In this document: positions 1,840 through 63,159 of the stretch, piece after piece | How positions within the stretch are numbered: the stretch's first letter is position 1 | Layout of the letters: each line of letters begins with the position of its first letter | Virus record (IMG/VR): IMGVR_UViG_3300041407_000207 | Coordinates: 52,090-116,089 of that record | Source: a virus | Lineage: Duplodnaviria > Heunggongvirae > Uroviricota > Caudoviricetes | Strand: one strand, 5' to 3' | DNA length: 64,000 nt | Notes under the pieces: model-generated | Databases searched by the model: none | Seen by the model: only the letters and a program-made list of their open reading frames with translations | What the model was told of the DNA's origin: nothing | Translations under genes and position numbers: made by a program

Positions 1840-3096
1840 TCAGTCTTCGTCAGCAGCCGCTTCAGTTTCTGGAAGTGCTGCCGCCGCAGTAGCACGGGCA
1901 TTCAACGCTTCGGTTTCCGCTTGCATTTCTGCAAGGATACGTTCAGCGATCTCATACGTACGACGATCTTCTTCGGAAGCTTCCGGAATCTGGAAGCCGG
2001 TATTCCACATTTCGATGAACGCCGGAGTGTAGAAGTCCGGGTAGTCCGCCTGGAAGATCAGGGACGGGACAAACTTGCTGCCCAGACTTGAACTGATCAT
2101 CTTCGCAGTTTCATAACGAACAGGGTTGTTGGAGAGCATTTCGTCTTCCAACGAAGAGCTCAGTTCGGTGAATACTGCATCCATGGTGCTGGAATTGGCC
2201 AACAGACTACTACGGATGGCTTCCGCAAACTGATTGACATCACGGCTTCGACCAGTAGTTTTCCACGGAGCAGCTCGTCTCAGGACTTCATTAATCGAGA
2301 TCGGGTCGTAGCTGGTACCGTTGAACAGATCGAAGCTGGTACGCCATGAACGAACCGGTTTGCCCATGAGGAAGTTCTGAGCGTAAGCGATTACCTGAGC
2401 AGCCATCAGGTTGTTGATCGCCAGAGTCTGATCGAGATCAGCACACGAACGAGTCGATTCGCCATCGAGCATTTCCGCGTAGTACGCGATATCGATAGGC
2501 AACTCGCTCAACACAGTATCGCCCGGCAGGTAGCCTTGATACCAGTTGTAGATGAACTCCAGATCTTTGGCCGAAGCCGCGTTGATCTTGCCCGTGGTAA
2601 AGAAGCTTACCTGGCCGAAGATGTCTTCGTTACCTGCGTCAATCACTACGCTGGAGTTAGGCTGACCAGCCTGAGTAGACAAACCGGATTTGAGAATCGC
2701 ACGACGAGCTGAGGCGCTATCTACGGCCAGTACGTAAAGAGTTGGACCAGTGAGACGCTCGCGAAGGTTGAACATCTCCAGCGCTTCCAGGTACTCGTCT
2801 GTACCGGCAGCCAAGGTGATGGGCGTGATCTTCAGATCGTAAGCTTTGCTGTAGCGGGCAGCCAAGGCCTGAGCCTTGTTTTTACCGACGTCTGATTTTG
2901 CGAAATTCTGACGGCTGAGATTCTTCTCCTCAACTTCGTCGAAGTCGACCAATACCATTTCAGGCATGATCAACGTAGTGAGTGTGGACATCAGTTGTGC
3001 AATCGCCGGAATCAGGCGAGAACCCGTACCACCACAACCAAAGATCACTACGGTCTGTGGGATGTATGGGAGTTGGAACGTTAAATTTGTAGACAT
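1840..3096 (-). CDS. E1-like ThiF/MoeB-family adenylyltransferase (ubiquitin-activating-like), 418 aa
   Basis: N-terminal Rossmann motif VVIFGCGGTGSRL. The ThiF signature LVDFDEVEEKNLSRQ. Later C-x-DLDQTLAINNL...FLMG. AGGAG ribosome-binding site 10 nt before the ATG. Extra C-terminal extension of about 150 aa. Confidence 0.8.
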   Translation of the reverse strand: MSTNLTFQLPYIPQTVVIFGCGGTGSRLIPAIAQLMSTLTTLIMPEMVLVDFDEVEEKNLSRQNFAKSDVGKNKAQALAARYSKAYDLKITPITLAAGTDEYLEALEMFNLRERLTGPTLYVLAVDSASARRAILKSGLSTQAGQPNSSVVIDAGNEDIFGQVSFFTTGKINAASAKDLEFIYNWYQGYLPGDTVLSELPIDIAYYAEMLDGESTRSCADLDQTLAINNLMAAQVIAYAQNFLMGKPVRSWRTSFDLFNGTSYDPISINEVLRRAAPWKTTGRSRDVNQFAEAIRSSLLANSSTMDAVFTELSSSLEDEMLSNNPVRYETAKMISSSLGSKFVPSLIFQADYPDFYTPAFIEMWNTGFQIPEASEEDRRTYEIAERILAEMQAETEALNARATAAAALPETEAAADED

Positions 3097-3152
3097 GTTG
3101 AGCCTCTCCTGAAAGACAAAAGGGTAGGAAGGAAATCTCCTCTCTACCCTTG

Positions 3153-3160
3153 TTATACCA
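3153..3160 (-). promoter_or_regulatory. extended -10 box TGGTATAAC (minus-strand reading)
   Basis: Member of the conserved cTGGTATAA(C/G) family upstream of minus-strand units. Lies in the 85-aa gene/E1 gene junction. Confidence 0.4.
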
Positions 3161-3161
3161 A

Positions 3162-3419
3162 CTACAAGCCTTGTTCTGCGAGTCGTGCTTTACCCGGAAC
3201 ACTGAGCTCGTCATGAGCCTTGCGGATTATCTCCAACAACCAATCATCTTGGTTTTGATCCGAAAGGACTTCGATGCAGTTGAGGCCGACTGCGTACGCC
3301 ATGGCTACATCGGTGCCCTCTACTTCTTCGACGACGGTGAAGTCGTCTTGTCTCGAGAACTCGATAAGCGGCATGATCGCTTTACGCAGTTCAGCCTCGT
3401 CGTACATCTCATCGCTCAT
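3162..3419 (-). CDS. small acidic hypothetical protein, 85 aa, between the JAB and E1 genes
   Basis: AGGAG ribosome-binding site 7 nt upstream. Same polarity as the operon. The opposite-strand ORF 3150-3425 was judged spurious. Confidence 0.45.
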   Translation of the reverse strand: MSDEMYDEAELRKAIMPLIEFSRQDDFTVVEEVEGTDVAMAYAVGLNCIEVLSDQNQDDWLLEIIRKAHDELSVPGKARLAEQGL

Positions 3420-3469
3420 GAATAGCTCCTGAGGATCGTAGTCAAGCGGAAGTGCTTTGTTTAGGAACC

Positions 3470-4522
3470 CTACTTCTCCGACCCATCCAAATCTTTCAGC
3501 TTCCTCTGAAGACGAGTCGAACCCGGAACCATTCGTTTGCCTTTGCGAGATTGGCGCCCCGATACCTGCGGGCGCTGCGGAAAAGGGAGGAAAGAGTCCT
3601 CCTCAGTTCCGCTACACGGAAAAGGGAAACCAAACTGATTCAGCACCTCCGTATCGTCAGCGCTCAAACCTACAGATTCCAAAGCCATCGAGCCATTATT
3701 TCCGCGAAAGCTTTCGTTGGCTACTACCCGACCTCCGGGCGTTGTAGTGGTACTTCTGTTAGCACCACCCCCAGTGGTCCCGGCCCCACTCGTATTCTGG
3801 GAATACAGAGGACGGGTGTTGTACGTCGGGGCTACATACTGCTGCTTTTTTACCTGTGCCAACCATTCGGCGGGCACCTCCGTGGTTTCATAGGTTTCGA
3901 AAATCAACTCCGGAGGAAGTGGATTGATCTTCATATTGCCAGGCAGGTTGAATCGGAAAACCTTGTCGCAGGTAGTGCTCAGCTTGCCGATTACGCCAGA
4001 AACGTAGCAGTTGCCACGGTCGTCGCTGTCATCGGTACCGCTGAAGAATGCACCCATATCGTTGTGACTATGGATGTCCAGGACGATTACGTCTTCCGAG
4101 GTCAGGAACCCAGCCCAGTTGTAGTTAACCGCACCCGCCGAAACAGTCTGCTCAGGGATTCGAACATGGTAGCCCTGGGTAGGGTTCCAGATTACGAAAG
4201 CCATAGCTTCGAGCTTGGCGCCTTTGTGTTCGATCATTACCTGCTTGAAGAATTGCTCGATCTGGTGCAGGAACTTGATAGGGATCTTGCCCGCAGGAAA
4301 GAACGAATTGGTGTCCTGCTTGCAGTCCATCAGCTCAACTTCTTTCGGAGGAGTCGGGCAGGGAACTGTAACCGAACGACCGTGAGTCAAGTTGGTACGA
4401 CGGAAACAGCCGTTACCGCTGATGATGTAGATTTCTGCGAAGTTTTCGGAGATGGCCTCGTCGAGGTCAGTCTTCGTATCAACTACGCAAGAGAAGTACG
4501 GGAGAATAATTCGTTTGGTCAT
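3470..4522 (-). CDS. JAB/MPN (JAMM) metalloprotease domain protein, 350 aa, with a low-complexity G/T-rich C-terminal tail
   Basis: Exact JAMM motif H151-S-H153-x7-S161-x2-D164 (LDIHSHNDMGAFFSGTDDSDD). Upstream Glu (IPEQ). AAGGA ribosome-binding site. Confidence 0.8.
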   Translation of the reverse strand: MTKRIILPYFSCVVDTKTDLDEAISENFAEIYIISGNGCFRRTNLTHGRSVTVPCPTPPKEVELMDCKQDTNSFFPAGKIPIKFLHQIEQFFKQVMIEHKGAKLEAMAFVIWNPTQGYHVRIPEQTVSAGAVNYNWAGFLTSEDVIVLDIHSHNDMGAFFSGTDDSDDRGNCYVSGVIGKLSTTCDKVFRFNLPGNMKINPLPPELIFETYETTEVPAEWLAQVKKQQYVAPTYNTRPLYSQNTSGAGTTGGGANRSTTTTPGGRVVANESFRGNNGSMALESVGLSADDTEVLNQFGFPFPCSGTEEDSFLPFPQRPQVSGRQSRKGKRMVPGSTRLQRKLKDLDGSEK

Positions 4523-4532
4523 GATTCAATCC

Positions 4533-5315
4533 TTAGTAGGAAACCAGTTCGTAAGGGAAACGTTTTTCTTCTTTGTAGACTTCCGCAAGTTTCTTGAACC
4601 AGCTGGAGTGGCTACTGGAGTCAAACCTGACGTTCATCAGGCGAAGGTCATTGTTGAACGGAGAGTTCGCCAAGACCTGGTAGTACGCCTGGAAAATACG
4701 GAGATCACCACCTTCAACCATGTTGAACATCTGGTTCCCACCCATGCACAACGTGTAGTTGTCATAGCAGTTCGGGAAAGGCATGTAGTTGAAGATGCCT
4801 GACAGCCGACCTGGAATAACCATCGGTAGATCATCACGAGCAACAGGAGTCGAATAGTAATAAGCGTGAGCTACCTCGTGCTTCATACCGTTGTTCGAAA
4901 CCTTGAGGACCAGATGGATCACGATGTTAGGCATCATGATCTCATACTGATTCGTTTTGCTGCTGTTGATGTGAGTCAACGTTACTGGCCGCTCTGGGTA
5001 GTAAAGAGCGAGGTTGAGATTGTTACCTGCATACGCAGTCAGGTAGCAGCCTTCTGGCAGTCGCAGAGTTTCTGCACGGGAGTAGTTGAGAACTCCCTGT
5101 GCAGATTCCGCTAAAACTGCCACGAGATCTTTGATTGAGACTGGCTTTGCGAGACTGGACCCGTGACGCGTGATATGGGCACAGTCATCGAAAAGTTCAA
5201 TCTTCATTACTGGATTGGACATTGAGCCTCCGAGTGCTAAATATTCTTCTGCACTTTGCTTATACCAAAAAGGTGTGCAGTACTTAAATGAAGTCGTCTT
5301 CGTCGTCGTTCCCAC
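4533..5315 (-). CDS. hypothetical protein, 260 aa; possible degenerate E2/UBC-like fold
   Basis: GTG start. Segment NYMPFPNCYDNYTLCMGG has the P-N-x7-C spacing of the E2 HPN...Cys active-site loop (F replaces H). Weak evidence. Confidence 0.45.
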   Translation of the reverse strand: MGTTTKTTSFKYCTPFWYKQSAEEYLALGGSMSNPVMKIELFDDCAHITRHGSSLAKPVSIKDLVAVLAESAQGVLNYSRAETLRLPEGCYLTAYAGNNLNLALYYPERPVTLTHINSSKTNQYEIMMPNIVIHLVLKVSNNGMKHEVAHAYYYSTPVARDDLPMVIPGRLSGIFNYMPFPNCYDNYTLCMGGNQMFNMVEGGDLRIFQAYYQVLANSPFNNDLRLMNVRFDSSSHSSWFKKLAEVYKEEKRFPYELVSY

Positions 5316-5778
5316 TTGCCTGGATAAACACAGGAGCCGTGTTTACGCTGCGAGTAAGAATCCGAGTATCGATAATTCCGTTCCCAGAACGAGCACGGCT
5401 TGAACCATTACCCACTACTCGTTCATGATTGGTGCGATACTGAGTAGTAGCGGCCTCGAGAGCCCCAATCTTCAGTATCATTCCTTCCAAGTATTCCCGG
5501 GTTAATTCGTCGGGAAGAGTATTGAAACTTTCACCGAGGCCAGGAGGAAACACTTCGTGACTTCCGGAGATAGTCCCTTCGTTCCAGTAATTCTCGCAGG
5601 AGAATTCGACGCCCATGGCTTCATGAACTTTTCGAATGTAATCGATCATGTTCTGAAACCCTTCTGAAGAAGGGGCATTCGATTTACACTCAGCAAACAA
5701 CATCTCGCAAGCTTCACCAAAAGTGAGGCCTGCAAAACGATCTACGGGTTCTTCAATTACGACCTGGGCTGCGTCCAT
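5284..5778 (-). CDS. hypothetical protein, 164 aa
   Basis: Overlapping start/stop with its neighbours (operon packing). Acidic C-terminus. Confidence 0.45.
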   Translation of the reverse strand: MDAAQVVIEEPVDRFAGLTFGEACEMLFAECKSNAPSSEGFQNMIDYIRKVHEAMGVEFSCENYWNEGTISGSHEVFPPGLGESFNTLPDELTREYLEGMILKIGALEAATTQYRTNHERVVGNGSSRARSGNGIIDTRILTRSVNTAPVFIQASGNDDEDDFI

Positions 5779-6677
5779 TTGTATTCTCCGGAAGAGCCTG
5801 ATGTTTGTGTGAAGGGAAGCTTGTCGCCGCTAGCAATTACGCTATAGACGTTACGATCCGAGTAGAGATCTTTGTTATTCCCGTGGAAGTTTTGATCGTA
5901 TTCCGTAAGAACACGCCAATCTCGAAAATTAACTTTTCGATTGAAATTAACGATTGGAAACTTCGGGTCTTCGCCCCAAGTACCATCATGACTTCGAATT
6001 TTCCGAGTCAGCGTGCTCAGGACTTTATTGACGCCATTGACTACTTGACCGATATCCATGGTGCGGAGGATAGCTTTCAAAGTACCGACGTTACCGTCAA
6101 ATCTTCCGCCGAGATCGTTAGCGAACTGCTCGCGAACTCGAATACACATTCCATGGATGTTTTCGCCCACGACGGCAGAGGAGTTATCGAGAGTAGCTAC
6201 CCGGCTGTTGAAGCTGTTGCCGGATCCAATGCGGATGTCGAAGAAGCCCGGATACTTCCGGAGTAGTCGGCCCAAGTAACGAATCACTGCGCCGTCTGCC
6301 GGGAGGAAGAAAACTACTTCAGAAAGACCGTTTATTTCGGTCGCTGGAATAGGCCCATTGAAGCCTTGAAGATCTACCGACGCCCAATCGTGCAGAGCTT
6401 TAAAGTAAATACTCCGGAAATCGTTAGCTCCACGGGGAGCAGAAACGGTGCCTCGAGTAGGTACCTTCATACGGTGGAAAATTTCGGTGAACATAGTACC
6501 GAGACGGCTATTGAGCAAAGCCCAGGTATTATGGCTAACGGGCTGGAACGGGGTGTACTGGTTGTTAGACAACGCCTGTGCTCGACGAGAGATCGTTCGA
6601 TTTCGATTGGCGTTGGCAATCAATTGAGTCTGAGTATTATCAATCAGAACGTTTCCGTTCTCATCAAAAGCATACAT
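5757..6677 (-). CDS. hypothetical protein, 306 aa
   Basis: Long ORF in operon polarity. Begins just downstream of the terminator at 6706-6735. Confidence 0.5.
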   Translation of the reverse strand: MYAFDENGNVLIDNTQTQLIANANRNRTISRRAQALSNNQYTPFQPVSHNTWALLNSRLGTMFTEIFHRMKVPTRGTVSAPRGANDFRSIYFKALHDWASVDLQGFNGPIPATEINGLSEVVFFLPADGAVIRYLGRLLRKYPGFFDIRIGSGNSFNSRVATLDNSSAVVGENIHGMCIRVREQFANDLGGRFDGNVGTLKAILRTMDIGQVVNGVNKVLSTLTRKIRSHDGTWGEDPKFPIVNFNRKVNFRDWRVLTEYDQNFHGNNKDLYSDRNVYSVIASGDKLPFTQTSGSSGEYKWTQPRS

Positions 6678-6705
6678 GATGGAGCCTCCTCCAAATGACT
6701 AAAAG

Positions 6706-6735
6706 AAAAGCCTCCACTAGGGAGGCTTTTTTTGG
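6706..6735. terminator. bidirectional hairpin terminator / attenuator between the 66-aa gene and the 306-aa gene
   Basis: aaagAAGCCTCC-actag-GGAGGCTTttttt; T-runs on both strands. Confidence 0.55.
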
Positions 6736-6789
6736 CTTGAGGAAAGCTAAGACTAAGTCCTAGCTTTCACTCTTGCCGACCGGGCTGGA

Positions 6790-6990
6790 TTAGCAGCCTT
6801 TGGTGCCGACGCGTGCAGCGAAGGTGATGGTACGTTCTTCGCCAGAATCGACGCTGGTGCCGTCCATGCTGTTGATGGCCGGAACGCTCGAACCGTACAT
6901 GCTTTTCACTGCTTCGACCGTTTGAGCACCTGGCAGGGTGAAGGTCTGACCGGTGGTGCTGATAACGATTTTGGTAGTGTTGATAGCCAT
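6790..6990 (-). CDS. small protein, 66 aa; candidate beta-grasp (ThiS/MoaD/ubiquitin-like) with a non-canonical C-terminus ...RVGTKGC
   Basis: AGGAG ribosome-binding site 9 nt upstream and own promoter box at 7054-7061. Length and hydrophobic/Gly pattern (INSMDG...ERTITFAARVGtkgc) parallel ThiS (...DGD.I.I...VGGG). Followed by a terminator, suggesting high expression relative to the enzymes. Confidence 0.45.
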   Translation of the reverse strand: MAINTTKIVISTTGQTFTLPGAQTVEAVKSMYGSSVPAINSMDGTSVDSGEERTITFAARVGTKGC

Positions 6991-7053
6991 GGATGAAACT
7001 CCTAATGCATTTGGGATTTTTAGCTAAAGAGATAGTTCTCTCTCGCACTATTG

Positions 7054-7061
7054 TTATACCA
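7054..7061 (-). promoter_or_regulatory. extended -10 promoter TGGTATAACAATAGTGCGAGAGAG (minus strand)
   Basis: The near-identical 24-mer recurs at 42490-42512 upstream of the non-coding RNA locus. Confidence 0.55.
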
Positions 7062-7153
7062 GACATTCACTAAATATTGAAATTTATTAGCCTAAAAAGA
7101 GCTGCGCGGAGTTTAAAGGCTCTATATCAATGCTTTCAGAGTGGCGTCTTTGG

Positions 7154-7648
7154 TCTAGACAAATCTTGTCTACGGATAAGTGCTTGATTTCATTGGGTTT
7201 AGTCAAAGTTTAGACAAAGTAGACAAAAGCTGTCTAGAGTTTGTCTACGGCTCAAACCCACGGTCCGTAAGGCCTGCAGGGGTGCGCTAGACAAAATGAC
7301 AAGATTTTTCTCTGCACATGCACTCAGAGTGTGGATTTGTCACCTCAAGAAAATAAATCAGATCCATGACAACACCCCCCCTTTTGTCTACCAGCACATG
7401 AGTATATTTATAAATATATTTATATATATATATGTAGGTAGGAGTTTCAAATCTTTTATGTGGGGTTTACAAGCTTTGAGTGCATGTGAAACTTCAAATC
7501 TTGTCATTTTGTCTAGCGCAGGATTCAAAGCCATACAGGACGTGGCCTGCAGCCCTAGACAAACCTTAGACAGCTTTTGTCTATTTTGTCTAGATTCTGA
7601 CGAAGCCCAATGAATACGGGTACTTGGCCGTAGACAAGATTTGTCTAG
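7154..7648. repeat. nested inverted-repeat region built from TAGACA/TGTCTA hexamers around an AT-rich core
   Basis: Outer inverted repeat 7154-7175 / 7627-7648 (22 bp). Middle 7220-7239 / 7566-7582. Inner 7284-7306 / 7496-7518 (23 bp). About 15 hexamer copies. Centre 7396-7432 is (TA)n-rich. Confidence 0.7.
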
Positions 7649-7916: not shown

Positions 7917-9614
7917 ATGACTGACAAGATAACTACCCTTACACGGGCACAATTGGCGACCGCGATCCTAGAGATCAAAGGTAAGCCTCTCTCATTTAAT
8001 GAATACCTACCGTTCATCGACGTTTACGATCAGTATCCGGATGAGATGGTTCTGAAGTGTGGTCGTCAGGTAGGTAAATCGGTATCTCTATCCGGTGCTC
8101 TGGTTTCTAACAGTGCTTCTGTCCCTCACTTCAACTCTTTGTACATTGCTCCTCTCAGCCAGCAGACGAGTCGTTTCTCAACGGGATACCTCGACACCTT
8201 CATGGAGTCCCCGTTGCTTCAGAAGTACTACCGAGACACTAACTCTCGGAAGAACGTCTTTCAGAAATCGTTTAAGAACAAGTCCACGATCTATTTGGGG
8301 TATGCGGAGACCGAGGCTGATGCCGACCGTATTCGAGGCGTCAACGCTGACTTGCTCTGCGTGGATGAAATCCAAGACGTCAGCTTTGATGCCTTACCTG
8401 TTTTGTACGAAACCCTCTCTGCATCGGATTACGCATATAAGCGTCTTACCGGAACTGCCAAGACAGAGAACAACACTCTGGAGTTGAAGTGGAGAGCCAG
8501 TAACCAGTGTGAGTGGGTAATGAGGTGTGATGGATGTAGTCGTCATATTGCTGCTTACGACTACGAAACCTGCATGAAGATTCTCGAGCACAAGGACGGT
8601 CCTGGTTGTCCTCACTGCGGTCACACCATCGATGTAACCAAGGGGAGTTGGGTTTCTTTCAATCCAGAAGTTACTCGTAGCATTGGCCTGCATATCCCTC
8701 AGTTCATCATCGGGGCTCGAACCAAGCCTAAGAAATGGCGAGAACTGCAAGACAAGCTGACGATGTACAACCCTCAGAAACTTGCAAACGAGGTCTTTGG
8801 ATTAGCAGCGGGTATGGGTGGTAAGATTCTTACCCAGCGAGAAGCGATGCTTTGCTGCAATCTAGAGAAGACCGCCTTTGACGATCAGTGGCCGGTAGAT
8901 GACCGTGGTATCTTGCAGATTGCTCTCGGCGTTGACTGGTCTGTAACTTCAGCGTCTAAGTCATACACCATCATCACGGTAGTAGGGACGAATATGCTGG
9001 GTAAGATGTTTCTCCTCTACTCGGAGAGACTTAACGGTGTTGATATCCTGGACCAAGTACGGCATGTAATGTACATAGCCAGAAAATTCAAAGTTCAAAT
9101 GATCGCCTCTGACCGAGGAGTCGGGGTTCTTCAATGCCAGCTTCTTCAAAATGAACTGGGCAGAGATGTAGTTCAGCCAATTAACTACGTCGCATCTAAA
9201 GCGGCTCTTCGCTGGGATGGCATGGGCCAATATTTTGCGGCAGACCGTACGATGTGTATCGATTCGGTTATCATGAAGATGAAGCTTGGCAAAAACAGCT
9301 TTGAGACTCCGTCTTGGGATGTCACTGCTGGATTCTGGAGAGACGCTCTCAGCGTCCATGAAGAAGAGACTCGTGCAGGACGCCGTATCTATTGCAAACA
9401 TCCAGATATTCCAGATGATTGGTTGCACAGCGTTGTATTTGCTAATATCGGCTTGATGATACTTCGAAAAGAGTTCAAGTATATAGAAGCTCTCGAAGTC
9501 GGCACCAATATCCCACAAGCAATTTTCGCAGGTGGCTATGCGGATAAAGATGCGTGGGGCGCAGGAGATGACGACGACACTATGTTCGGTGGTCTCGGGC
9601 GTGAAGACTATTAA
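7917..9614 (+). CDS. terL: terminase large subunit, 565 aa
   Basis: Walker A KCGRQVGKS. Walker B LLCVDEIQD. C-terminal nuclease-like region. First gene of the late operon. Confidence 0.85.
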   Translation: MTDKITTLTRAQLATAILEIKGKPLSFNEYLPFIDVYDQYPDEMVLKCGRQVGKSVSLSGALVSNSASVPHFNSLYIAPLSQQTSRFSTGYLDTFMESPLLQKYYRDTNSRKNVFQKSFKNKSTIYLGYAETEADADRIRGVNADLLCVDEIQDVSFDALPVLYETLSASDYAYKRLTGTAKTENNTLELKWRASNQCEWVMRCDGCSRHIAAYDYETCMKILEHKDGPGCPHCGHTIDVTKGSWVSFNPEVTRSIGLHIPQFIIGARTKPKKWRELQDKLTMYNPQKLANEVFGLAAGMGGKILTQREAMLCCNLEKTAFDDQWPVDDRGILQIALGVDWSVTSASKSYTIITVVGTNMLGKMFLLYSERLNGVDILDQVRHVMYIARKFKVQMIASDRGVGVLQCQLLQNELGRDVVQPINYVASKAALRWDGMGQYFAADRTMCIDSVIMKMKLGKNSFETPSWDVTAGFWRDALSVHEEETRAGRRIYCKHPDIPDDWLHSVVFANIGLMILRKEFKYIEALEVGTNIPQAIFAGGYADKDAWGAGDDDDTMFGGLGREDY

Positions 9615-18623: not shown

Positions 18624-18820
18624 TGGCCACTACATACACTACAGATACTGGCGTAGACCAGACTTCTAAACTACCTACGGGAGTTGCCTCATCCGGCAAT
18701 CTCTCGGGTACCTCTGACGCTTTGACTTGTTTTAGGGAACAGCAGTTCTCACAAAAACTACAGGTTTTCCTGGTCAGCTACGTCATGTCGGTTAGCTCTC
18801 CTTACGCGGTTTATAAGTAA
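18623..18820 (+). CDS. hypothetical small protein, 65 aa
   Basis: ATAATG-type coupling on both sides. Confidence 0.3.
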   Translation: MATTYTTDTGVDQTSKLPTGVASSGNLSGTSDALTCFREQQFSQKLQVFLVSYVMSVSSPYAVYK

Positions 18821-19515
18821 TGTCTGAAGTACGCAAGTTAGACCAAGAGTTGTTTCATACTTACCAGCAAACGAAATCCCCTCAGGATCTCCACAAGTTG
18901 GTGAACCAACTCATGCCATTGATTCATACCGAAGTCAAAAGAGCATCCGGTACTCTTCCAACTCAGGCACTTACCTCTGAAGCTAAGAAGTGGACCATCC
19001 ATGCTATAAATACGTACGATCCTTCAAAAGGTACTCAGCTTTCTACCCATGTGACCAACTACCTTCAAAAGGTACGTAGGATGAACTACAGGTATCAGAA
19101 CGCTGCACGTCTTTCGGAGAACAACCAACTCATTTTCCACAAATACAACAACGCCCAGCAAGGACTACAAGAACGACTTAGCCGAGAGCCCACTGACGAA
19201 GAACTGGCGGCGGAACTTGGTTGGTCTAAAAAGGGAGTGATAAAGTTCAAAGCAGGTATCTTCCAAGATATCGTGGAGAGCAGTAAAGAGAAAGCTAGCG
19301 AGTATTCTCGATTCGATACTGGCAAACCTCTATTTGAACACATGATGGAGCAGTTGACTCCCGAAGAACATTTGATCATGACTCATACTGGAGAGCTCTC
19401 TTCCGGAGAACTTGCAGATAAGCTCGGGGTTAACGTCAACCGTCTTAACTACTTGAAAGGTAAGATGGTTAAGAAATTAAAAGACATTCAAGATGAAATG
19501 TCGAGGTATCAATAA
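18820..19515 (+). CDS. sigma-70-family RNA polymerase sigma factor, 231 aa
   Basis: Region-2-like segment (WTIHAINTYDPSKGTQLSTHVTNYLQKVRR). C-terminal region-4 helix-turn-helix (LTPEEHLIMTHTGELSSGELADKLGVNVNRLNYLKGKMVKKLK). Confidence 0.6.
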   Translation: MSEVRKLDQELFHTYQQTKSPQDLHKLVNQLMPLIHTEVKRASGTLPTQALTSEAKKWTIHAINTYDPSKGTQLSTHVTNYLQKVRRMNYRYQNAARLSENNQLIFHKYNNAQQGLQERLSREPTDEELAAELGWSKKGVIKFKAGIFQDIVESSKEKASEYSRFDTGKPLFEHMMEQLTPEEHLIMTHTGELSSGELADKLGVNVNRLNYLKGKMVKKLKDIQDEMSRYQ

Positions 19516-37598: not shown

Positions 37599-38576
37599 TT
37601 ACAGTCCTCGTTTGGCAAGAGCTTTATCTTGGTGGCTACTCCCGTGAAGGAAATCCACCCAACGTTCAAGTTCACAGACGCCACCTGCGGCGTTAACGTG
37701 GCCACCCCCTTCGAACATCTTGGCCATTTGCGACACATCTACTGAATGAGCAGCACCCTGCTTGCTGCGCATGCTCAGAGCTACTTCCCCACCACGAGTA
37801 GCATTGTAGGCAATCACGAAAGGAACTTCGTGACGGTCGTACAGGTACTGGCAAACTTCGGACTGGTAGCACGAGGCATTTACTACGATGCCGCCACCAT
37901 AACCCTGGACTTCAAGATAACGGTAGGAGCTGGCCATCTTTTTGATCTGGGTATCCATCTCCTTGCAGAGAAAGGATCCTGCCTTGATACACTCTTCGGG
38001 AAAGAGACTGAAATCGTAGATTGCGAGTAGGTATGACGCCGGGTCATTGGTTTCTGCCGATGCCGACATCCACGCGATAACTTCTCTAGTCCTAGGCATC
38101 GCCCAAGTCCAGAGATCACGATCTTCTACGTGAAGAGCGAGGTTCGGTATCCCCGAAGGGTTCTCAACGCCTTTACGGAAATACTCCCATGCCAAACGAG
38201 CACCAGATTTCGTCATATCGAAAATCAGATCAAGGCCCTTCATCCCTTCCAACTGTTTCGCATCATCGCGAGCAGTTTTGTGATGGTCTAGGATAACTAC
38301 CTTGATCTCTACTGAGAGTAGATCCTGAACCACTACAGGCTTAGGACAGAAGTCCACAAAAATAATCTGCTCAACATTTTGTGCCAGCGCCAATTGGTAC
38401 GGTGCTTTTGGATCTTCTGCGAAGAATCCATCCCAGTCAGACTGGTTGTAGCCGATAGGGATCAACCCTTCTTTTTCATCACAGTCCAATCGACCTTCAC
38501 GAATTGCTTCCAGAGCTGCCGCAGCAGCCATGGTCCCGTCGAAGCAATGAGAGTGATAAAACACTACTGTTTTCAT
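37599..38576 (-). CDS. DHH-DHHA1 phosphoesterase (NrnA-like nanoRNase/pAp phosphatase family), 325 aa
   Basis: Motif I YHSHCFDGT (DHH-family Asp cluster). Motif III ILDHHK. DHHA1 GGGH motif (MFEGGGHVNAAG). Confidence 0.75.
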   Translation of the reverse strand: MKTVVFYHSHCFDGTMAAAAALEAIREGRLDCDEKEGLIPIGYNQSDWDGFFAEDPKAPYQLALAQNVEQIIFVDFCPKPVVVQDLLSVEIKVVILDHHKTARDDAKQLEGMKGLDLIFDMTKSGARLAWEYFRKGVENPSGIPNLALHVEDRDLWTWAMPRTREVIAWMSASAETNDPASYLLAIYDFSLFPEECIKAGSFLCKEMDTQIKKMASSYRYLEVQGYGGGIVVNASCYQSEVCQYLYDRHEVPFVIAYNATRGGEVALSMRSKQGAAHSVDVSQMAKMFEGGGHVNAAGGVCELERWVDFLHGSSHQDKALAKRGL

Positions 38577-51395: not shown

Positions 51396-51403
51396 TTATA
51401 CCA
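51396..51403 (-). promoter_or_regulatory. extended -10 box TGGTATAAGTA (divergent from the plus-strand late element at 51410-51421)
   Basis: Motif family. Confidence 0.45.
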
Positions 51404-54070: not shown

Positions 54071-55819
54071 TCACGCCGCCATAGGAAGAGATTCCGTCAG
54101 GTTTGTACGCAGCGATGTCATCGTCGCTTCCGAGAGGACTTGACTGTTACGCAGCACACAGTTCAAATCCCCGTTGTAGCCGACCGGCTTACCTTCGACG
54201 AGTTCATACTCGTTGTCTTGATCGAGTTCAAGAGACAACCAGCCTTTCGCAGACTTTTTGCCAGGGTCGGTCTTCGGCGCTTTGTAGACGTCGATCTTCA
54301 TGTTGCCTACTTCGCCATAGGTGAGCTTCATTGCGAAGCCCAACGAATCTCGAGTCAGGTACTGGAGACTGTAGCTGCCTACGCCTACCACGATGTTTTC
54401 CGCAGAGAAGCCCATTTCCATCAAACGTTGCAGAATTGCTTCGAAACGCTGGATGGTGATGGAGTCGCCGTAGATCATGCGGATGTGTGGGTCCAGGACT
54501 TTGAAACCCTTGGAGTTCACAGTGCCGCCGAATACGTTCCACAGATGTTGGACAGTACCGGTCTCTTCTACCGTGGGAGTGGTAGGTTCGAACTGAGTTA
54601 CTGTTTTGCCGTCCATGTAGTAGAACTGTCTGTCTTTGCGGTTCCATTCGATGGAGACGGTGTAGCGATACACTTGACCTTTCCAACGAGCCAGGCCAGA
54701 AACTTCGCTTTCGCCATGCTGGCCGTGTTCAGTTTCGTCTTGGACTTTTTCAGTAACGTAGTCCAGTACCCAACCGCTAGCGTGTTTCTCAGTCTCGGCT
54801 TCATCTCCGATTTCAAAGATTTCAGCGGTTCCGCAGATCACTTCGATAGGGACGCCAGTATCCGGACGAACTACGAATGGGCCCCCTTCACGAGCCATGA
54901 TCTTGTCTTTGAGACGAGGCAGGGCGTATTCCAGCATGCCGTAATAGTCGTAGCTGTCCATAACGAAGCTGATGGGGCCGACGTTGTCCAGGTAGTCAGA
55001 TAGGAAGGCAATTTCTGCTTCCAGCAGTGAACAGCCACGAACAGCTGCGATCATCTGAATGTTGAGGGTGGTTAGAGAGTGCTCGGTGGCCATGATCGAA
55101 CCGAAGTCCGCCTTGGTTGCACCGTACTCATGCATTGCAGCCAAGCAGCCAGGGATGTTATCCGAACCACTGAACGCAGCCAGGAAAGGAGCACCAGTTT
55201 TGTAGCCAGCAGTCATCCCGGTAAGTCCCCGGAGACTGAAGTCGTGACACTGGTACTTAACGTAGCCATTGTCGTCTGCAGTCAGTGCTGCGTACTTCTC
55301 AGCAACGATGCGGTATTCACGAGCAGCAGTGGCTACGGTACTTGGATACCACAGCTCGTTACTGAAGTGATCCTCCATGTAGCTTGCAAGCCACGCAAAG
55401 TCGTCATGCGTGTTGGTCACCAGCATGATCGGGGTGTTTGCTTTTACTACTCGGCCTTCTTCTACTGCATGGACTTCGATAGGCAAATAGCCAAGAGCGT
55501 GCAGATCCGAAAGACGAGTGAGGTCTGCGTTCGGAATGGTCGCCTCGATCAATGGCCGAATCACTTCTTCAACTTCGTCCCACGAGTCTTCGAAGAACAA
55601 GTTCCAAGCATGGTTGATAGCGCACATCCCCTGGAGAATGCCCGCTGCGACGATCTTACCGTCGTACATCGAGCTGCCTTGGAAGTGCTTGGTATTTCGA
55701 GGAGTAAAGTTACCTTGACCCTTCGTGTAGCCTTTTGGGTACAGACCTGGGTGACAGAACTTGTAAGCGTCACAGAGGATGGCTGCGTACAGTTTTGCTG
55801 GGGGGGTACTCATTCGCAT
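54071..55819 (-). CDS. nicotinamide phosphoribosyltransferase-family enzyme (Nampt/NadV or the NARP1 Namat variant), 582 aa
   Basis: MDSYDYYG and VVRPDTGVP match Nampt VSDSYDIY and IIRPDSGNP. IRMIYGDSITIQRF...VGVGSYSLQYLTRD matches LRVIQGDGVD...FGSGGALLQKLTRD. C-terminal KAPKTDPGKKSAKGWLSL matches KDPVADPNKRSKKGRLSL. Confidence 0.85.
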   Translation of the reverse strand: MRMSTPPAKLYAAILCDAYKFCHPGLYPKGYTKGQGNFTPRNTKHFQGSSMYDGKIVAAGILQGMCAINHAWNLFFEDSWDEVEEVIRPLIEATIPNADLTRLSDLHALGYLPIEVHAVEEGRVVKANTPIMLVTNTHDDFAWLASYMEDHFSNELWYPSTVATAAREYRIVAEKYAALTADDNGYVKYQCHDFSLRGLTGMTAGYKTGAPFLAAFSGSDNIPGCLAAMHEYGATKADFGSIMATEHSLTTLNIQMIAAVRGCSLLEAEIAFLSDYLDNVGPISFVMDSYDYYGMLEYALPRLKDKIMAREGGPFVVRPDTGVPIEVICGTAEIFEIGDEAETEKHASGWVLDYVTEKVQDETEHGQHGESEVSGLARWKGQVYRYTVSIEWNRKDRQFYYMDGKTVTQFEPTTPTVEETGTVQHLWNVFGGTVNSKGFKVLDPHIRMIYGDSITIQRFEAILQRLMEMGFSAENIVVGVGSYSLQYLTRDSLGFAMKLTYGEVGNMKIDVYKAPKTDPGKKSAKGWLSLELDQDNEYELVEGKPVGYNGDLNCVLRNSQVLSEATMTSLRTNLTESLPMAA

Positions 55820-55830
55820 TGGGCTACTCC

Positions 55831-57408: not shown

Positions 57409-57416
57409 TTATACCA
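57409..57416 (-). promoter_or_regulatory. extended -10 box TGGTATAAGAAC
   Basis: Motif family. Divergent from the plus-strand element at 57431-57440. Confidence 0.45.
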
Positions 57417-62095: not shown

Positions 62096-62172
62096 TGGTA
62101 ACCGGTAAGGGATTCGAACCCATAACCTACGAGGTAGAAGCTCGTAGCTCTATCCAGTTGAGCTAACCGGTT
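62096..62172 (-). tRNA. tRNA-Arg(UCU)
   Basis: Acceptor AACCGGT/ACCGGTT. D-arm GCTC-AACTGGAT-AGAGC. Anticodon stem ACGAG/CTCGT with loop CTTCTAC. T-arm ATGGG-TTCGAAT-CCCTT (one mismatch). Encoded CCA. Confidence 0.7.
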
Positions 62173-62177
62173 TTTGA

Positions 62178-62573: not shown

Positions 62574-62592
62574 AGATACTCTTGTGTAAAGG

Positions 62593-62682
62593 TGGAGGAA
62601 CAATCCAGATTCGAACTGGAGGAGCTATTTCTAACCCGACGATTTAGCAAACCGTTACCTTAAGCCACTCGGTCATTGTTCC
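62593..62682 (-). tRNA. tRNA-Ser(GCU), type II
   Basis: Acceptor GGAACAA/TTGTTCC. Anticodon stem ACGGT/ATCGT with loop TTGCTAA. Long variable arm. T-arm CCAG-TTCGAAT-CTGG. Discriminator U. Encoded CCA. Confidence 0.65.
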
Positions 62683-62687
62683 AAATA

Positions 62688-62775: not shown

Positions 62776-62796
62776 AGAAAAAGTAGGACTATTTCA

Positions 62797-63145: not shown

Positions 63146-63159
63146 ATTAGTTACCTAAT

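What the first reader, a model, noticed from the sequence alone, without database searches (positions are those of the whole stretch)
1840..6990. Phage-encoded ubiquitin-like conjugation-type operon: E1-like enzyme, JAB/JAMM protease, possible E2 and beta-grasp protein, plus three unknowns
Seven tightly packed minus-strand genes with overlapping starts and stops make up this operon.
- The 418-aa protein has unmistakable ThiF/MoeB E1 signatures: VVIFGCGGTGS and LVDFDEVEEKNLSRQ.
- The 350-aa protein carries a perfect JAMM motif, H-x-H-x7-S-x2-D (HSHNDMGAFFSGTDD).
- The 260-aa protein has an E2-like P-N-x7-C loop (FPNCYDNYTLC).
- A 66-aa protein at the operon head has ThiS/MoaD-like length and pattern but ends ...RVGTKGC rather than GG. 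It has its own strong promoter (TGGTATAACAAT) and is followed by an attenuator-like hairpin, which would suit a substrate protein made in excess.

E1+E2+JAB+Ubl operons are known from bacteria, where Bil/Bub-type systems conjugate a Ubl to phage tail proteins as defence. A complete set inside a virulent phage, placed back-to-back with its virion operon, is unusual. It could modify the phage's own virion proteins or host proteins, or serve counter-defence. The three co-operonic unknowns (306, 164 and 85 aa) may be targets or specificity factors.

An alternative is a sulfur-carrier or biosynthetic role of the CysO/Mec+ or TtuB/TtuC type. That is not favoured, because no PP-loop ATPase or sulfurtransferase is present, but it is not excluded.
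Basis: partly seen in the sequence, partly recalled or inferred. Interest (0 to 1): 0.88.

Follow-up and report, generated by a model that had tools for sequence, protein, structure and literature searches.

The report
Phage-encoded ubiquitin-like protein-tagging gene cassette
A large uncultured phage carries a complete ubiquitin-like tagging kit (tag, activating enzyme, carrier enzyme, trimming protease) that is a divergent relative of an uncharacterised plasmid system, so some phages probably tag proteins much as eukaryotic cells do, on targets still unknown.

Summary
The seven minus-strand genes are real, syntenic in at least seven metagenomic relatives, and under purifying selection (dN/dS 0.08-0.24).

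Four form a ubiquitin-like conjugation core:
- a 65-residue Ubl ending in an invariant T-K-G (the window adds one Cys)
- a 229-aa UBC-like E2, not 260 aa, with invariant P-x-x-N-x7-C
- a JAMM protease
- a ThiF-type E1 with an intact adenylation site and an invariant Cys218

The closest family is not Bil or Bub. It is the uncharacterised plasmid/ICE PRTRC cassette (operon type 6d of Iyer 2006), which has the same gene order and the same GTKG Ubl terminus. All HMM scores fall below the family cut-offs, ParB is absent, and one family-specific E2 histidine is replaced.

The core recurs next to the terminase gene in Salmonella phage Arash and Vibrio phage D69. It also occurs in Bacillus jumbo phages. 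In several of these the Ubl is a head-to-tail polyubiquitin-like array of 2-5 units, each ending GTKG.

The 306-, 164- and 85-aa proteins are clade-restricted orphans.

Three conserved TGGTATAA promoter-like boxes and a covarying terminator after the Ubl gene organise expression.

Conjugation chemistry is likely. Target and biological role remain unknown. This is a new variant of a known kind.

The parts
7053..7081 (-). Promoter-like element for the Ubl gene. It has TTCAAT, a 17-nt spacer and an extended -10 (TGGTATAAC).
   Evidence: It is the only such match in the window. Both hexamers are conserved and the spacer is variable in L008, L015, L013, L014, L005 and L016. TGGTATAA occurs 10 times in the window against 1.3 expected.
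7021..7050 (-). Conserved 5'-UTR stem-loop between the promoter-like box and the Ubl Shine-Dalgarno site.
   Evidence: It folds at -10.3 kcal/mol with z -3.65. The sequence is conserved in relatives, and L016 has a different stem sequence at the same place.
6790..6990 (-). Ubl precursor of 66 aa. The mature Ubl is residues 1-65 (6796-6990), ending T63-K64-G65. Cys66 (6793-6795) is a one-residue C-terminal extension.
   Evidence: - Best family hits are PF14454 Prok_Ub (E 0.036) and TIGR03738 PRTRC_C (E 0.015).
- T63 and G65 are invariant.
- Relatives end at GTKG.
- Tandem arrays occur in L016, D69, L003 and WH1.
- hhalign against the WH1 repeat gives 93% probability, E 3.6e-7.
6706..6730 (-). 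Intrinsic-terminator-like hairpin plus T-run between the Ubl and p306 genes (attenuator).
   Evidence: Found (-14.6 kcal/mol, z -3.4). Four stem pairs carry compensatory changes and TTTTCTTTTAGT is invariant across 6 relatives.
5757..6677 (-). p306, a clade-restricted accessory protein in the position of the 'rapidly diverging' middle protein of PRTRC-type operons. Function unknown.
   Evidence: - 21 homologue clusters, all from this clade.
- Only 15 hits among 1.84 billion representatives.
- AF2 pLDDT 83 with no convincing PDB or BFVD match.
- Invariant PADGAVIRYL motif.
- dN/dS 0.12.
5284..5778 (-). p164, a clade-restricted accessory protein with an invariant acidic C-terminus ...DDF[IL]. 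Function unknown.
   Evidence: - 19 clusters, all in this clade.
- Alignment.
- No family or PDB hit.
- dN/dS 0.11.
5260..5267 (-). TGGTATAA promoter-like box in the p164-E2 gap, followed by a small stem-loop.
   Evidence: The box is conserved in all seven relatives. The stem-loop is weak in the window (-6.0 kcal/mol, z -2.2) and stronger in L007 and L016.
4533..5222 (-). E2-like (UBC-fold) protein of 229 aa after correcting the start. The motif F-P-N151-x7-C159 holds the candidate catalytic Cys159.
   Evidence: - PF14460 Prok-E2_D at E 0.024 for the window protein; 9 of 14 aligned members hit it, best 1.7e-46.
- P148, N151, C159 and G161 are invariant.
3470..4522 (-). JAB/JAMM metalloprotease of 350 aa. 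It has an N-terminal JAB-N-like region, the JAMM core (E105, H151, H153, S161, D164) and a low-complexity C-terminal tail.
   Evidence: PF14464 at E 6e-9 and TIGR03735 PRTRC_A at 68 bits, E 7e-19, against a cut-off of 101.8. The JAMM residues are invariant.
3162..3419 (-). p85, a small acidic clade-restricted protein. Function unknown.
   Evidence: It is syntenic in all relatives that cover the position. No family hit. dN/dS 0.08.
3122..3160 (-). TGGTATAA promoter-like box (3153-3160) followed by a strong stem-loop and T-run (3122-3149), upstream of the E1 gene.
   Evidence: Searches show it conserved in L008, L015, L013, L014, L005 and L007. The fold is -18.4 kcal/mol with z -3.7.
1840..3096 (-). 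ThiF/E1-like adenylating enzyme of 418 aa. It has a Rossmann adenylation domain, an invariant Cys218 (SCADLDQ) and a clade-specific extension of about 140 aa at the C-terminus.
   Evidence: - PF00899 at E 1e-14 and TIGR03736 PRTRC_ThiF at 83.8 bits, E 1e-23, against a cut-off of 144.75.
- Invariant residues.
- The profile hits the adenylation domains of MccB, UBA3, Uba1, Uba5, ThiF, MoeB and Cap2.

Best explanation
The cluster is a phage-borne, highly diverged PRTRC-type (Iyer 2006 type 6d) ubiquitin-like protein-conjugation cassette.

Proposed mechanism (inferred from the families involved, not demonstrated):
1. The Ubl gene is transcribed from its own conserved extended -10 promoter. A conserved terminator attenuates read-through, so the tag is made in excess over the enzymes.
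2. The JAMM protease trims the precursor after ...T-K-G65. In this phage it removes one Cys. In relatives it would cut tandem poly-Ubl arrays into monomers.
3. The E1 adenylates Gly65 with ATP/Mg2+ and probably takes it as a thioester on Cys218.
4. The Ubl passes to Cys159 of the UBC-like E2.
5. The Ubl is transferred to lysines of target proteins. The JAB enzyme can reverse this.

p306, p164 and p85 are lineage-specific accessory factors, either adaptors or targets.

The three promoter-like boxes are of the class that precedes non-structural genes in this window (RNase H, a DUF3268 zinc-finger gene, an NAD-salvage-like pair). I therefore think the system acts in the infected cell during the non-late programme, on host or phage replication or takeover proteins, rather than as part of the late virion programme. 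That last step is the weakest.
For: Shown here:
- All four core proteins have PRTRC-family models as their best or only hits.
- The gene order Ubl-X-E2-JAB-E1 is the same as in the Azospira pAZI09 PRTRC operon, and the Ubl ends in the same GTKG.
- HMMs built from phage sequences alone pick PRTRC protein C and a PRTRC-operon E2 as their best non-phage hits.
- Catalytic residues are invariant: the E1 adenylation set plus C218, E2 N151/C159 and the JAMM motif.
- Poly-Ubl arrays have every unit ending GTKG. They occur in L016 (2 units), D69 (3), L003 (5) and Bacillus phage WH1 (5 units plus a C-terminal cap). This implies endoproteolytic maturation at Gly.
- Purifying selection acts on all seven genes.
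- Group I introns with homing endonucleases have invaded the JAMM motif at two different sites in relatives. This fits a conserved catalytic core.
- TGGTATAA boxes number 10 against 1.3 expected, 9 of them on the minus strand. None precedes a plus-strand structural gene, and several precede RNase H, DUF3268 and a Prs-like/NAPRTase block.
- The terminator shows covariation.
Against: - No biochemical data exist for any PRTRC-type system, as stated in PMC13366799.
- All window HMM scores are below the curated cut-offs.
- The Ubl fold was not modelled, and hhalign to E. coli ThiS and MoaD found nothing.
- The equivalence of Cys218 to an E1 catalytic Cys is inferred from invariance only (alignments stop before it).
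- The histidine downstream of the E2 Cys, described as absolutely conserved in type 6d, is Asn/Asp in the phage proteins.
- The expression timing rests on a sequence motif alone.
- Two phage annotations label cassette proteins as virion-associated: the Arash E1 and E2 homologues, and the WH1 poly-Ubl. This points the other way for the target.
Confidence: 0.6

Rival explanations
1. The chemistry is the same, but the targets are the phage's own virion proteins. The Ubl is conjugated to head, tail or baseplate proteins for stabilisation, assembly control or masking against host Bil-type tagging. Alternatively, the machinery is packaged into the virion and injected.
For: - The cassette lies between the tail/baseplate module and the terminase gene in the window, Arash and D69.
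- The GenBank record of Arash labels the E1 and E2 homologues (gp246c, gp248c) 'structural protein', from particle mass spectrometry.
- Bacillus phage WH1 annotates its 5-unit poly-Ubl gp211 as 'virion structural protein'.
Against: - The Arash particle proteome lists 116 proteins, including ribonucleotide reductases and kinases, so it is not specific.
- The basis of the WH1 label could not be found.
- Plasmid and ICE PRTRC homologues have no virion.
- The cassette's promoter-like boxes are shared with non-structural genes and are absent from the plus-strand structural block.
Confidence: 0.25
2. The cassette is a counter-defence or host-takeover device whose main activity is the protease. JAB removes host Ubl-type marks (Bil, CBASS Cap2 conjugates), while Ubl, E1 and E2 act as decoy or competitor.
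For: - Bil and type II CBASS use E1/E2/JAB chemistry (PMC11601603).
- The same promoter-like box precedes an NAD-salvage-like Prs/NAPRTase pair. From my own knowledge, not tested here, that pair resembles known counter-defence genes.
- On the one PRTRC plasmid examined, the cassette sits among DNA-entry and establishment-type genes: dnaN, an N6 methylase and nucleases.
Against: - There is no specific similarity to Cap3, BilC, BilA or BilB.
- A complete and conserved E1/E2/Ubl set, with poly-Ubl amplification, is more than a decoy would need.
- No experiment exists.
Confidence: 0.15
3. It is a sulfur-carrier or small-molecule biosynthetic system of the ThiS/ThiF, MoaD/MoeB, CysO or MccB type. 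The E1 only adenylates, or thiocarboxylates, the small protein, and no protein conjugation occurs.
For: - The E1 belongs to the ThiF/MoeB/MccB superfamily, and MccB is its best PDB sequence hit.
- NCBIfam ThiF and MoeB models hit the Rossmann region weakly.
Against: - None of the seven cassette proteins matches a rhodanese, PP-loop or sulfurtransferase family.
- A UBC-like partner with an invariant Cys is always present.
- The terminus is T-K-G, not GG.
- Poly-Ubl arrays make little sense for a sulfur carrier.
- The best family matches are PRTRC, not cofactor pathways.
Confidence: 0.05
4. It is a plasmid-derived maintenance, partition or addiction module, as PRTRC is often glossed, carried passively by the phage with no role in lytic infection.
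For: - PRTRC is named for its link with ParB and is called a 'partitioning cassette' in the literature.
- Iyer 2006 speculated on addiction-like behaviour.
Against: - tblastn detects no ParB or other PRTRC accessory protein in the 64-kb window.
- The cassette holds the same position across a deeply diverged phage clade whose terminases are 43-52% identical.
- It is under purifying selection.
- Homing endonucleases have colonised it, as happens with core phage genes.
Confidence: 0.07

Closest known systems
PRTRC system (ParB-related, ThiF-related cassette; TIGR03734-03742), which is operon type 6d of Iyer, Burroughs & Aravind 2006 (PMC1779556)
   Same: - The same four core proteins are present: a Prok_Ub Ubl with a C-terminal Gly, an E2 of Prok-E2_D type lacking the HPN histidine, a Prok-JAB protease with an N-terminal extension, and a stand-alone ThiF E1 without rhodanese.
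- The order is the same: Ubl, variable middle protein(s), E2, JAB, E1.
- The Ubl terminus is the same GTKG as in the Azospira pAZI09 protein C.
   Different: - All scores fall below the family cut-offs.
- No ParB, DnaN or PRTRC D/E/F proteins are present.
- The type-6d histidine downstream of the E2 Cys is Asn/Asp.
- The E1 and JAB carry long clade-specific C-terminal extensions.
- The middle proteins (p306, p164, p85) are unrelated orphans.
- The host replicon is a large phage of roughly 170-190 kb (from relatives), not a plasmid or ICE.
- Relatives encode poly-Ubl arrays.
- The function of PRTRC itself is unknown.
Canonical PRTRC cassettes in temperate Burkholderia/Ralstonia phages (AB2, BgVeeders33, Dina; PMC13366799, 2026)
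   Same: They are phage-borne PRTRC-type cassettes. BgVeeders33 appears in the E1 tblastn search at 28.7% identity.
   Different: Those cassettes are canonical. They include ParB and score as PRTRC A, B, C, E and F. They sit in small temperate phages of about 33 kb and were read as partition modules.
Bil (BilABCD) and Bub bacterial ubiquitination-like defence operons
   Same: Both have separate Ubl, E1, E2 and deconjugating peptidase, and both perform protein conjugation chemistry (PMC11601603).
   Different: - Only a weak BilD hit (E 5.5e-4) to the E1 Rossmann region was found, with no BilA, BilB or BilC hits.
- Bil and Bub are encoded by bacteria as anti-phage defence.
[quoted passage not shown] Nothing there suggests these are cut apart. 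Here each repeat ends in the same conjugation-type terminus as a free Ubl, which suggests cleavage.
Type II CBASS Cap2 (E2-E1 fusion) / Cap3 (JAB)
   Same: It combines E1, E2 and JAB chemistry. PADLOC E1-E2 models and PDB Cap2 hit the E1.
   Different: - The hits cover only the Rossmann segment.
- The E2 is not fused to the E1 here.
- No CD-NTase is present.
- A dedicated small Ubl is present instead.
Eukaryotic ubiquitin pathway, including polyubiquitin genes (UBB/UBC)
   Same: - It runs as an E1-E2 cascade with (H)PN-x7-C spacing in the E2.
- A JAMM protease is involved.
- The tag ends in basic-Gly.
- Head-to-tail tag arrays occur, with a short C-terminal cap in WH1 (GLEFFKAIAPKLRKK) and one Cys in the window.
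   Different: - No detectable sequence similarity to ubiquitin.
- A single terminal Gly preceded by Lys.
- No RING or HECT E3 was recognised.
- The E1 is a small single-domain ThiF-type enzyme.
Lambda/T1 tail-assembly TAPI (Ubl) / TAPK (JAB + NlpC/P60)
   Same: It pairs a phage-encoded Ubl with a JAB peptidase next to tail genes (PMC1779556).
   Different: No E1 or E2 is present there. Here there is no NlpC/P60 domain and no TAPJ neighbour, and the JAB family is different.

Membership tests
PRTRC / Iyer type 6d | Small stand-alone Ubl (Prok_Ub / PRTRC protein C) with a conserved C-terminal glycine | tested here: met
   - G65 and T63 are invariant across 17 units.
- The GTKG end is identical to that of Azospira PRTRC C.
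- HMM hits are sub-threshold: PF14454 at 14.3 bits against 25, and TIGR03738 at 15.5 against 45.95.
- A phage-only HMM retrieves PRTRC C as its best non-phage hit.
PRTRC / Iyer type 6d | E2/UBC-like protein (Prok-E2_D) with a conserved Cys and without the classical HPN histidine | tested here: met
   - The motif is F-P-N151-x7-C159, with P148, N151, C159 and G161 invariant.
- PF14460 hits 9 of 14 aligned members, best 1.7e-46. The window protein reaches only 14.8 bits against 25.
PRTRC / Iyer type 6d | An 'absolutely conserved' histidine downstream of the E2 cysteine | tested here: not met
   Plasmid members have SH or GH at this place. All phage members have the invariant N190-N191-D192 (SPFNNDL).
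PRTRC / Iyer type 6d | JAB peptidase with a complete JAMM motif (PRTRC protein A) | tested here: met
   H151, H153, S161 and D164 are invariant. TIGR03735 scores 68.1 bits, E 7e-19, below the cut-off of 101.8.
PRTRC / Iyer type 6d | JAB-N domain with strictly conserved Arg and Trp | tested here: inconclusive
   An N-terminal region of about 95 aa is present. A G-[ND]-G stretch and a nearby Arg align loosely with the Azospira and Leptolyngbya proteins. No Trp is conserved in the phage members, and the region lies outside the HMM match (78-196).
PRTRC / Iyer type 6d | Stand-alone ThiF-type E1 without rhodanese (PRTRC ThiF) | tested here: met
   TIGR03736 is the best NCBIfam hit at 83.8 bits, E 1e-23, below the cut-off of 144.75. 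The adenylation residues are invariant.
PRTRC / Iyer type 6d | Gene order Ubl, rapidly diverging middle protein, E2, JAB, E1 | tested here: met
   The window was compared with Azospira pAZI09, the Leptolyngbya plasmid, Arash, D69, L003 and WH1.
PRTRC / Iyer type 6d | Linked ParB-family protein and PRTRC proteins D/E/F | tested here: not met
   tblastn of the Aeromonas, Azospira and Leptolyngbya neighbours (ParB, DnaN, protein E and the middle proteins) against the 64-kb window gave nothing significant. NCBIfam found no D/E/F hit in the cassette. The search was at BLAST level and covered only this window.
Bil (BilABCD) | Sequence membership of BilA (Ubl), BilB (E2), BilC (JAB) and BilD (E1) | tested here: not met
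   PADLOC gave BilD at E 5.5e-4 on the Rossmann segment only, and no hits for the other three proteins.
Type II CBASS Cap2/Cap3 | E2-E1 fusion protein plus CD-NTase substrate | tested here: not met
   E1 and E2 are separate genes. PADLOC E1-E2 hits cover only E1 residues of about 11-145. No CD-NTase is in the cassette.
Sulfur-carrier systems (ThiS/ThiF, MoaD/MoeB, CysO) | GG-ended carrier, E1 with or near a rhodanese or sulfurtransferase, and downstream biosynthetic enzymes | tested here: not met
   - The terminus is TKG.
- None of the seven proteins has a rhodanese or biosynthetic domain.
- hhalign of the Ubl profile against ThiS and MoaD found nothing.
- ThiF and MoeB models score far below their cut-offs.
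Ubiquitin-like beta-grasp fold (Ubl proper) | Beta-grasp three-dimensional fold of the 65-aa protein | not tested
   Both structure-prediction jobs went to the E2 and p306. The fold is inferred only from homology to Prok_Ub, which Iyer 2006 assigned to beta-grasp. No solved structure matches by sequence.
UBC/E2 fold | Alpha1, four-stranded beta-meander, active-site loop carrying the Cys, then C-terminal helices | tested here: met

The most novel reading that the evidence does not exclude
Several unrelated lineages of large phages encode a working ubiquitin-like conjugation pathway of their own, including polyubiquitin-style precursor genes that a JAMM protease cuts into monomers. The lineages are the Arash/D69/window clade and Bacillus jumbo phages. 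On this reading the phage uses the pathway to tag host or phage proteins during infection, and possibly carries the tag or the enzymes in the virion. This would be the first viral Ubl-E1-E2-DUB system in prokaryotes. It would also give the long-orphaned PRTRC family its first function.
Probability: 0.4. Interest if true: 0.9.

Novelty: new variant of a known kind. Interest (0 to 1): 0.74.

Why it matters
Ubiquitin-like conjugation in bacteria has so far been shown experimentally only for host defence systems (type II CBASS, Bil, Bub). The PRTRC/type-6d family, predicted in 2006, still has no known function.

A conserved version encoded by phages turns the question around: what does a virus gain from tagging proteins?

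It also offers tractable models. Salmonella phage Arash, Vibrio phage D69 and Bacillus phage WH1 are all cultured.

The head-to-tail poly-Ubl genes with a C-terminal cap closely parallel eukaryotic polyubiquitin genes. That bears on how ubiquitin gene architecture and DUB-dependent maturation arose.

One practical point: trypsin would leave a mono-Gly remnant on target lysines, because the Ubl ends ...K-G. That remnant is isobaric with carbamidomethylation, so standard proteomics would have missed these conjugates.

Tried and rejected
- **Near-identical DNA.** Megablast of the region against 50,697 phage records found no match.
- **Bil or CBASS membership.** PADLOC gave only Rossmann-segment hits, so this was rejected.
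- **PHROGs.** Nothing useful for any of the seven proteins.
- **Sequence matches to solved structures.** Nothing for the E2, the Ubl, JAB, p164 or p306.
- **p306.**
  - A profile search of 1.84 billion representatives returned only its own clade.
  - hhalign against the positional counterparts in Arash, Azospira, L003 and WH1 showed no similarity.
- **p164.**
  - hhalign against the small proteins before the E2 gene in Arash, D69 and L003, and against WH1 gp212, showed no similarity. This is despite a MAFFT alignment that looked suggestive and a shared ...DFI end. I do not claim homology.
  - From memory, the acidic ...DDF[IL] tail resembles SSB and T7 gp2.5 tails. This is a lead only.
- **Ubl profile against E. 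coli ThiS and MoaD.** Nothing found.
- **ParB and other PRTRC accessory proteins in the window.** None by tblastn.
- **Arash 'structural protein' labels.** Examined and down-weighted, because the particle proteome lists 116 proteins including metabolic enzymes. The paper's gp numbers could not be mapped safely onto GenBank tags.
- **Literature.** Searches for a described phage Ubl-conjugation system of this type found none. One search failed on a term that was too short. No paper on WH1 is held.
- **Rfam.** At gathering threshold there was nothing in the introns of relatives. Sub-threshold group I hits were found with the E-value search.

Full report
**1. Observation**

The region 1840-6990 holds seven minus-strand ORFs exactly as listed:
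- E1-like, 418 aa (1840-3096)
- p85 (3162-3419)
- JAB, 350 aa (3470-4522)
- p164 (5284-5778)
- p306 (5757-6677)
- a 66-aa protein (6790-6990)

They are genes, not chance ORFs. The full set is syntenic in seven independent metagenomic contigs at 31-100% protein identity: L005, L007, L008, L013, L014, L015 and L016. Nei-Gojobori dN/dS against L015 is 0.08-0.24 for every gene.

One correction concerns the E2-like protein. All 16 full-length database homologues are 225-231 aa. A GGAGG site precedes Met32, and a conserved promoter-like box lies in the supposed extension. The protein is therefore 229 aa (4533-5222). Only p306 and p164 then overlap.

**2. The four core proteins**

E1:
- It hits Pfam ThiF at 1e-14. 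The best NCBIfam model is PRTRC_ThiF (TIGR03736) at 83.8 bits, against a cut-off of 144.75.
- In an alignment with phage and plasmid relatives, G20-C-G-G-T-G-S26, D51, N59, R62, Q63, K74, D126, R131, D153 and C218 are invariant. The adenylation site is intact.
- A profile matches the adenylation domains of MccB, UBA3, Uba1, UBA6/7, Uba5, ThiF, MoeB and Cap2.
- Cys218 (SCADLDQ) is the candidate thioester site. This is inferred from invariance only.

JAB:
- It hits Prok-JAB at 6e-9 and PRTRC protein A (TIGR03735) at 68 bits against a cut-off of 101.8.
- H151, H153, S161 and D164 are invariant.

E2:
- For the window protein alone, Prok-E2_D gives only E 0.024. Nine of 14 aligned family members hit it, the best at 1.7e-46.
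- P148, N151, C159 and G161 are invariant. The Asn-to-Cys spacing (N-x7-C) is, from my own knowledge, that of classical HPN...C E2s, with Phe in place of His.
- An AlphaFold2 model (pLDDT 68, pTM 0.60) has the expected topology: helix, beta-meander, active-site loop, helices.
- This is moderate support, not strong. The active-site loop itself is modelled at low confidence.

Ubl:
- Its only family hits are Prok_Ub (E 0.036) and PRTRC protein C (E 0.015).
- The decisive evidence is comparative.
  - Close relatives are 65 aa and stop at ...R[VT]GTKG. The window and L008 add one Cys.
  - Canonical PRTRC protein C of Azospira pAZI09 also ends GVGTKG.
  - T63 and G65 are invariant across 17 units.
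- The beta-grasp fold itself was not modelled. It is inferred from membership of the Prok_Ub lineage, which Iyer et al. assigned to beta-grasp.

**3. Poly-Ubl precursors**

Several relatives encode the Ubl as a tandem array:
- In L016 it is a seamless tandem dimer (GTKG|AITSTK...GTKG).
- In Vibrio phage D69 it is a 263-aa protein with three units.
- In the IMG/VR contig L003 it is a 368-aa protein with five units, each ending [RK]TGTKG.
- Bacillus jumbo phage vB_BceM_WH1 has gp211, annotated 'virion structural protein'. It consists of five head-to-tail 57-aa units, each ending QAGTKG, followed by a 15-residue cap. The same gene is in phages Edson and KLEB27-3.

The WH1 unit matches the Ubl profile at 93% probability, E 3.6e-7, end to end. 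The protein two genes downstream of the WH1 poly-Ubl, gp214, matches the E2 profile at 95%, E 3.9e-8. A JAB (gp215) and a ThiF (gp216) follow it.

Arrays in which each unit ends with the conjugation-type terminus call for endoproteolytic maturation, for which the co-encoded JAMM protease is the obvious agent. This is an inference.

**4. Family placement**

The gene order Ubl, middle protein(s), E2, JAB, E1 is the same as in the PRTRC operon of Azospira pAZI09, which runs C-hyp-hyp-B-A-ThiF. It also matches Aeromonas and Leptolyngbya plasmids.

It corresponds to operon type 6d of Iyer et al. 2006. That type has a Ubl with a C-terminal Gly, a rapidly diverging middle protein, an E2 lacking the classical His, a JAB with a JAB-N domain, and an E1.

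HMMs built from phage sequences alone pick Azospira PRTRC C, and the E2 of the Aeromonas PRTRC operon, as their best non-phage hits among 1,199 ORFs.

Differences from PRTRC:
- All scores are below the curated cut-offs.
- No ParB, DnaN or PRTRC D/E/F proteins are detectable in the window.
- The type-6d histidine downstream of the E2 Cys is replaced by an invariant NND.
- The E1 and JAB carry long clade-specific tails.

Bil and CBASS models hit only the Rossmann part of the E1, so those memberships are rejected.

No function has been established for PRTRC. A 2026 paper that noted canonical PRTRC cassettes in temperate Burkholderia phages says the function is unstudied.

**5. The three unknowns**

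p306, p164 and p85 are conserved within the clade but evolve about twice as fast as E1 and E2.

p306 has 21 clusters among 5.8 billion proteins and 15 hits among 1.84 billion representatives, all from its own clade. Its model is confident (pLDDT 83), yet it has no convincing structural neighbour.

Profile comparisons with the positional counterparts in Arash, D69, L003, Azospira and WH1 are all negative.

The core is therefore four genes with a lineage-specific accessory set. This echoes the 'rapidly diverging' middle protein of type 6d. Whether the accessory proteins are adaptors or targets is open.

**6. Phage context**

The terminase at 7917-9614 is 52% identical to that of Salmonella phage Arash (181 kb) and 43% identical to that of Vibrio phages D69, D181 and D148 (187 kb).

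In those genomes the terminase gene is at the start of the record and the Ubl cassette at the end. The cassette is therefore adjacent and divergent to the terminase gene there too. It is an ancestral feature of this orphan clade.

GenBank labels the Arash E1 and E2 homologues 'structural protein', from particle mass spectrometry. That proteome lists 116 proteins, including ribonucleotide reductases, so the label is weak evidence.

**7. Expression signals**

Upstream of the Ubl gene lies TTCAAT-17 nt-TGGTATAAC. Both hexamers are conserved and the spacer is variable in six relatives.

TGGTATAA occurs 10 times in the window against 1.3 expected, and nine of these are on the minus strand. Three are in the cassette: before the Ubl, E2 and E1 genes. 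All three are conserved in relatives, and each is followed by a stem-loop.

Others lie 25-60 nt upstream of:
- RNase H
- a DUF3268 zinc-finger gene
- a block ending in a Prs-like/NAPRTase pair

None precedes a plus-strand structural gene. I infer that the cassette belongs to a non-late promoter class. This rests on the motif alone.

The hairpin after the Ubl gene is a conserved intrinsic terminator. It folds at -14.6 kcal/mol, has four pairs with compensatory changes, and has an invariant T-run.

**8. Mechanism and rivals**

Best-supported reading: a genuine Ubl conjugation cascade. JAB matures the Ubl, the E1 adenylates Gly65 and forms a thioester at C218, the Ubl passes to E2 C159, and it is then transferred to a lysine. 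JAB also deconjugates. The components and their conservation are shown here; the steps are inferred from them.

The target is unknown. I lean towards proteins of the infected cell, based on the promoter class and the plasmid ancestry. The virion-target model has two independent annotation hints and keeps substantial weight.

Sulfur-carrier and MccB-like chemistry is unlikely, given the E2, the TKG end, the poly-Ubl arrays and the absence of sulfurtransferase domains. A passive plasmid-style partition module is unlikely, given the lack of ParB, the fixed position in a deep phage clade, and purifying selection.

**9. Novelty**

The kind of system (type 6d/PRTRC) has been known from sequence since 2006, and canonical copies in small temperate phages were noted in 2026.

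New here:
- a strongly diverged, ParB-less version that is core to a clade of large phages, with a related core in Bacillus jumbo phages
- polyubiquitin-like precursor genes
- lineage-specific accessory proteins

Literature searches found no description of this.

I rate it a new variant of a known kind, with high interest for the bacterial-ubiquitin and phage fields. The rating is tempered by the complete lack of functional data.

Noticed in passing
window 7156-7647: Thirteen of the window's 21 exact TTGTCTA/TAGACAA heptamers cluster in about 500 bp of the 925-bp gap between the Ubl gene and the terminase gene. They occur in both orientations, including two perfect TAGACAA-N3-TTGTCTA palindromes. 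About 10 are expected in the whole 64 kb. The same array of 11 copies lies in the equivalent gap of L005 (5616-6106). It could be an operator, iteron, pac or origin array. Unexplained.
   Followed up: partly
L005 9206-10253; L013 3056-4172; L014 3155-4273; L016 4463-5511: In these relatives the JAB gene is interrupted inside the JAMM motif by an insert of about 1.1 kb carrying a LAGLIDADG homing-endonuclease ORF. There are two different insertion sites: HSH|NDMG in L013 and L014, with the ORF on the opposite strand, and HSHNDMG|AFFSG in L005 and L016. Rfam Intron_gpI scores 43 bits (E 2.7e-9, below gathering) in L005 and 19 bits in L013. These are probably group I introns. The window's JAB gene is uninterrupted.
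   Followed up: partly
L003 8138-8683: A 181-aa ORF sits between the JAB and E1 genes of the IMG/VR relative. By eye it resembles an HNH/AP2-type homing endonuclease, which would be a second kind of selfish element colonising the cassette. It was not scanned against any family library.
   Followed up: no
L001 102-320 (Salmonella phage Arash, OQ632216): GenBank gp251c (72 aa) appears to be called in the wrong frame. The overlapping ORF at L001 107-307 encodes a 66-aa Ubl homologue ending RRTGTKG.
   Followed up: yes
L018 4789-5688 (Bacillus phage vB_BceM_WH1 gp211): A 299-aa protein annotated 'virion structural protein' is in fact five head-to-tail Ubl repeats, each ending QAGTKG, plus a 15-residue C-terminal cap. 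A protein ending ...ESDFI, a 509-aa protein, an E2-like protein, a JAB and a ThiF follow it. The same gene is in phages Edson and KLEB27-3.
   Followed up: partly
window 3153-3160, 5260-5267, 7054-7061, 39140-39147, 41182-41189, 42505-42512, 51396-51403, 57409-57416, 63873-63880 (all minus strand): A recurrent TGGTATAA extended -10-like box lies 25-65 nt upstream of the minus-strand gene starts checked. In the three cassette gaps examined it is followed by a stem-loop. From memory, this resembles the promoter/stem-loop cassettes of T4-type phages. It is likely a promoter class for non-structural genes.
   Followed up: partly
window 54071-56670 (-): A 582-aa NAPRTase-family protein lies next to a 279-aa PRPP-synthetase-like protein. 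From memory, this resembles phage NAD+-reconstitution (NARP1-type) counter-defence pairs. It is driven by the same TGGTATAA box at 57409-57416.
   Followed up: no
window 39140-40645 (-), 38625-39095 (-), 37599-38576 (-): A phage-encoded Ro60/TROVE + vWA protein (501 aa) lies next to RNase H and a DHH/DHHA1 phosphoesterase. No Y-RNA-like RNA was found by Rfam at gathering threshold.
   Followed up: no
window 44673-44746 and 62096-63236 (-): Five tRNA genes are present: Gly-tcc, Arg-tct, Ser-gct, Ser-tga and Met-cat.
   Followed up: no
L002 8001-8987 (Vibrio phage D69): The E1 homologue aligns from 8001, but the annotated CDS starts at 8232 and a small minus-strand CDS is called at 8021-8110. 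This is probably a frameshift or a mis-annotation of the E1 gene.
   Followed up: no
window 18820-19515 (+): A 231-aa sigma-factor-like protein (phrog_351) lies inside the plus-strand block that follows the terminase gene. It suggests the phage has its own transcription programme.
   Followed up: no
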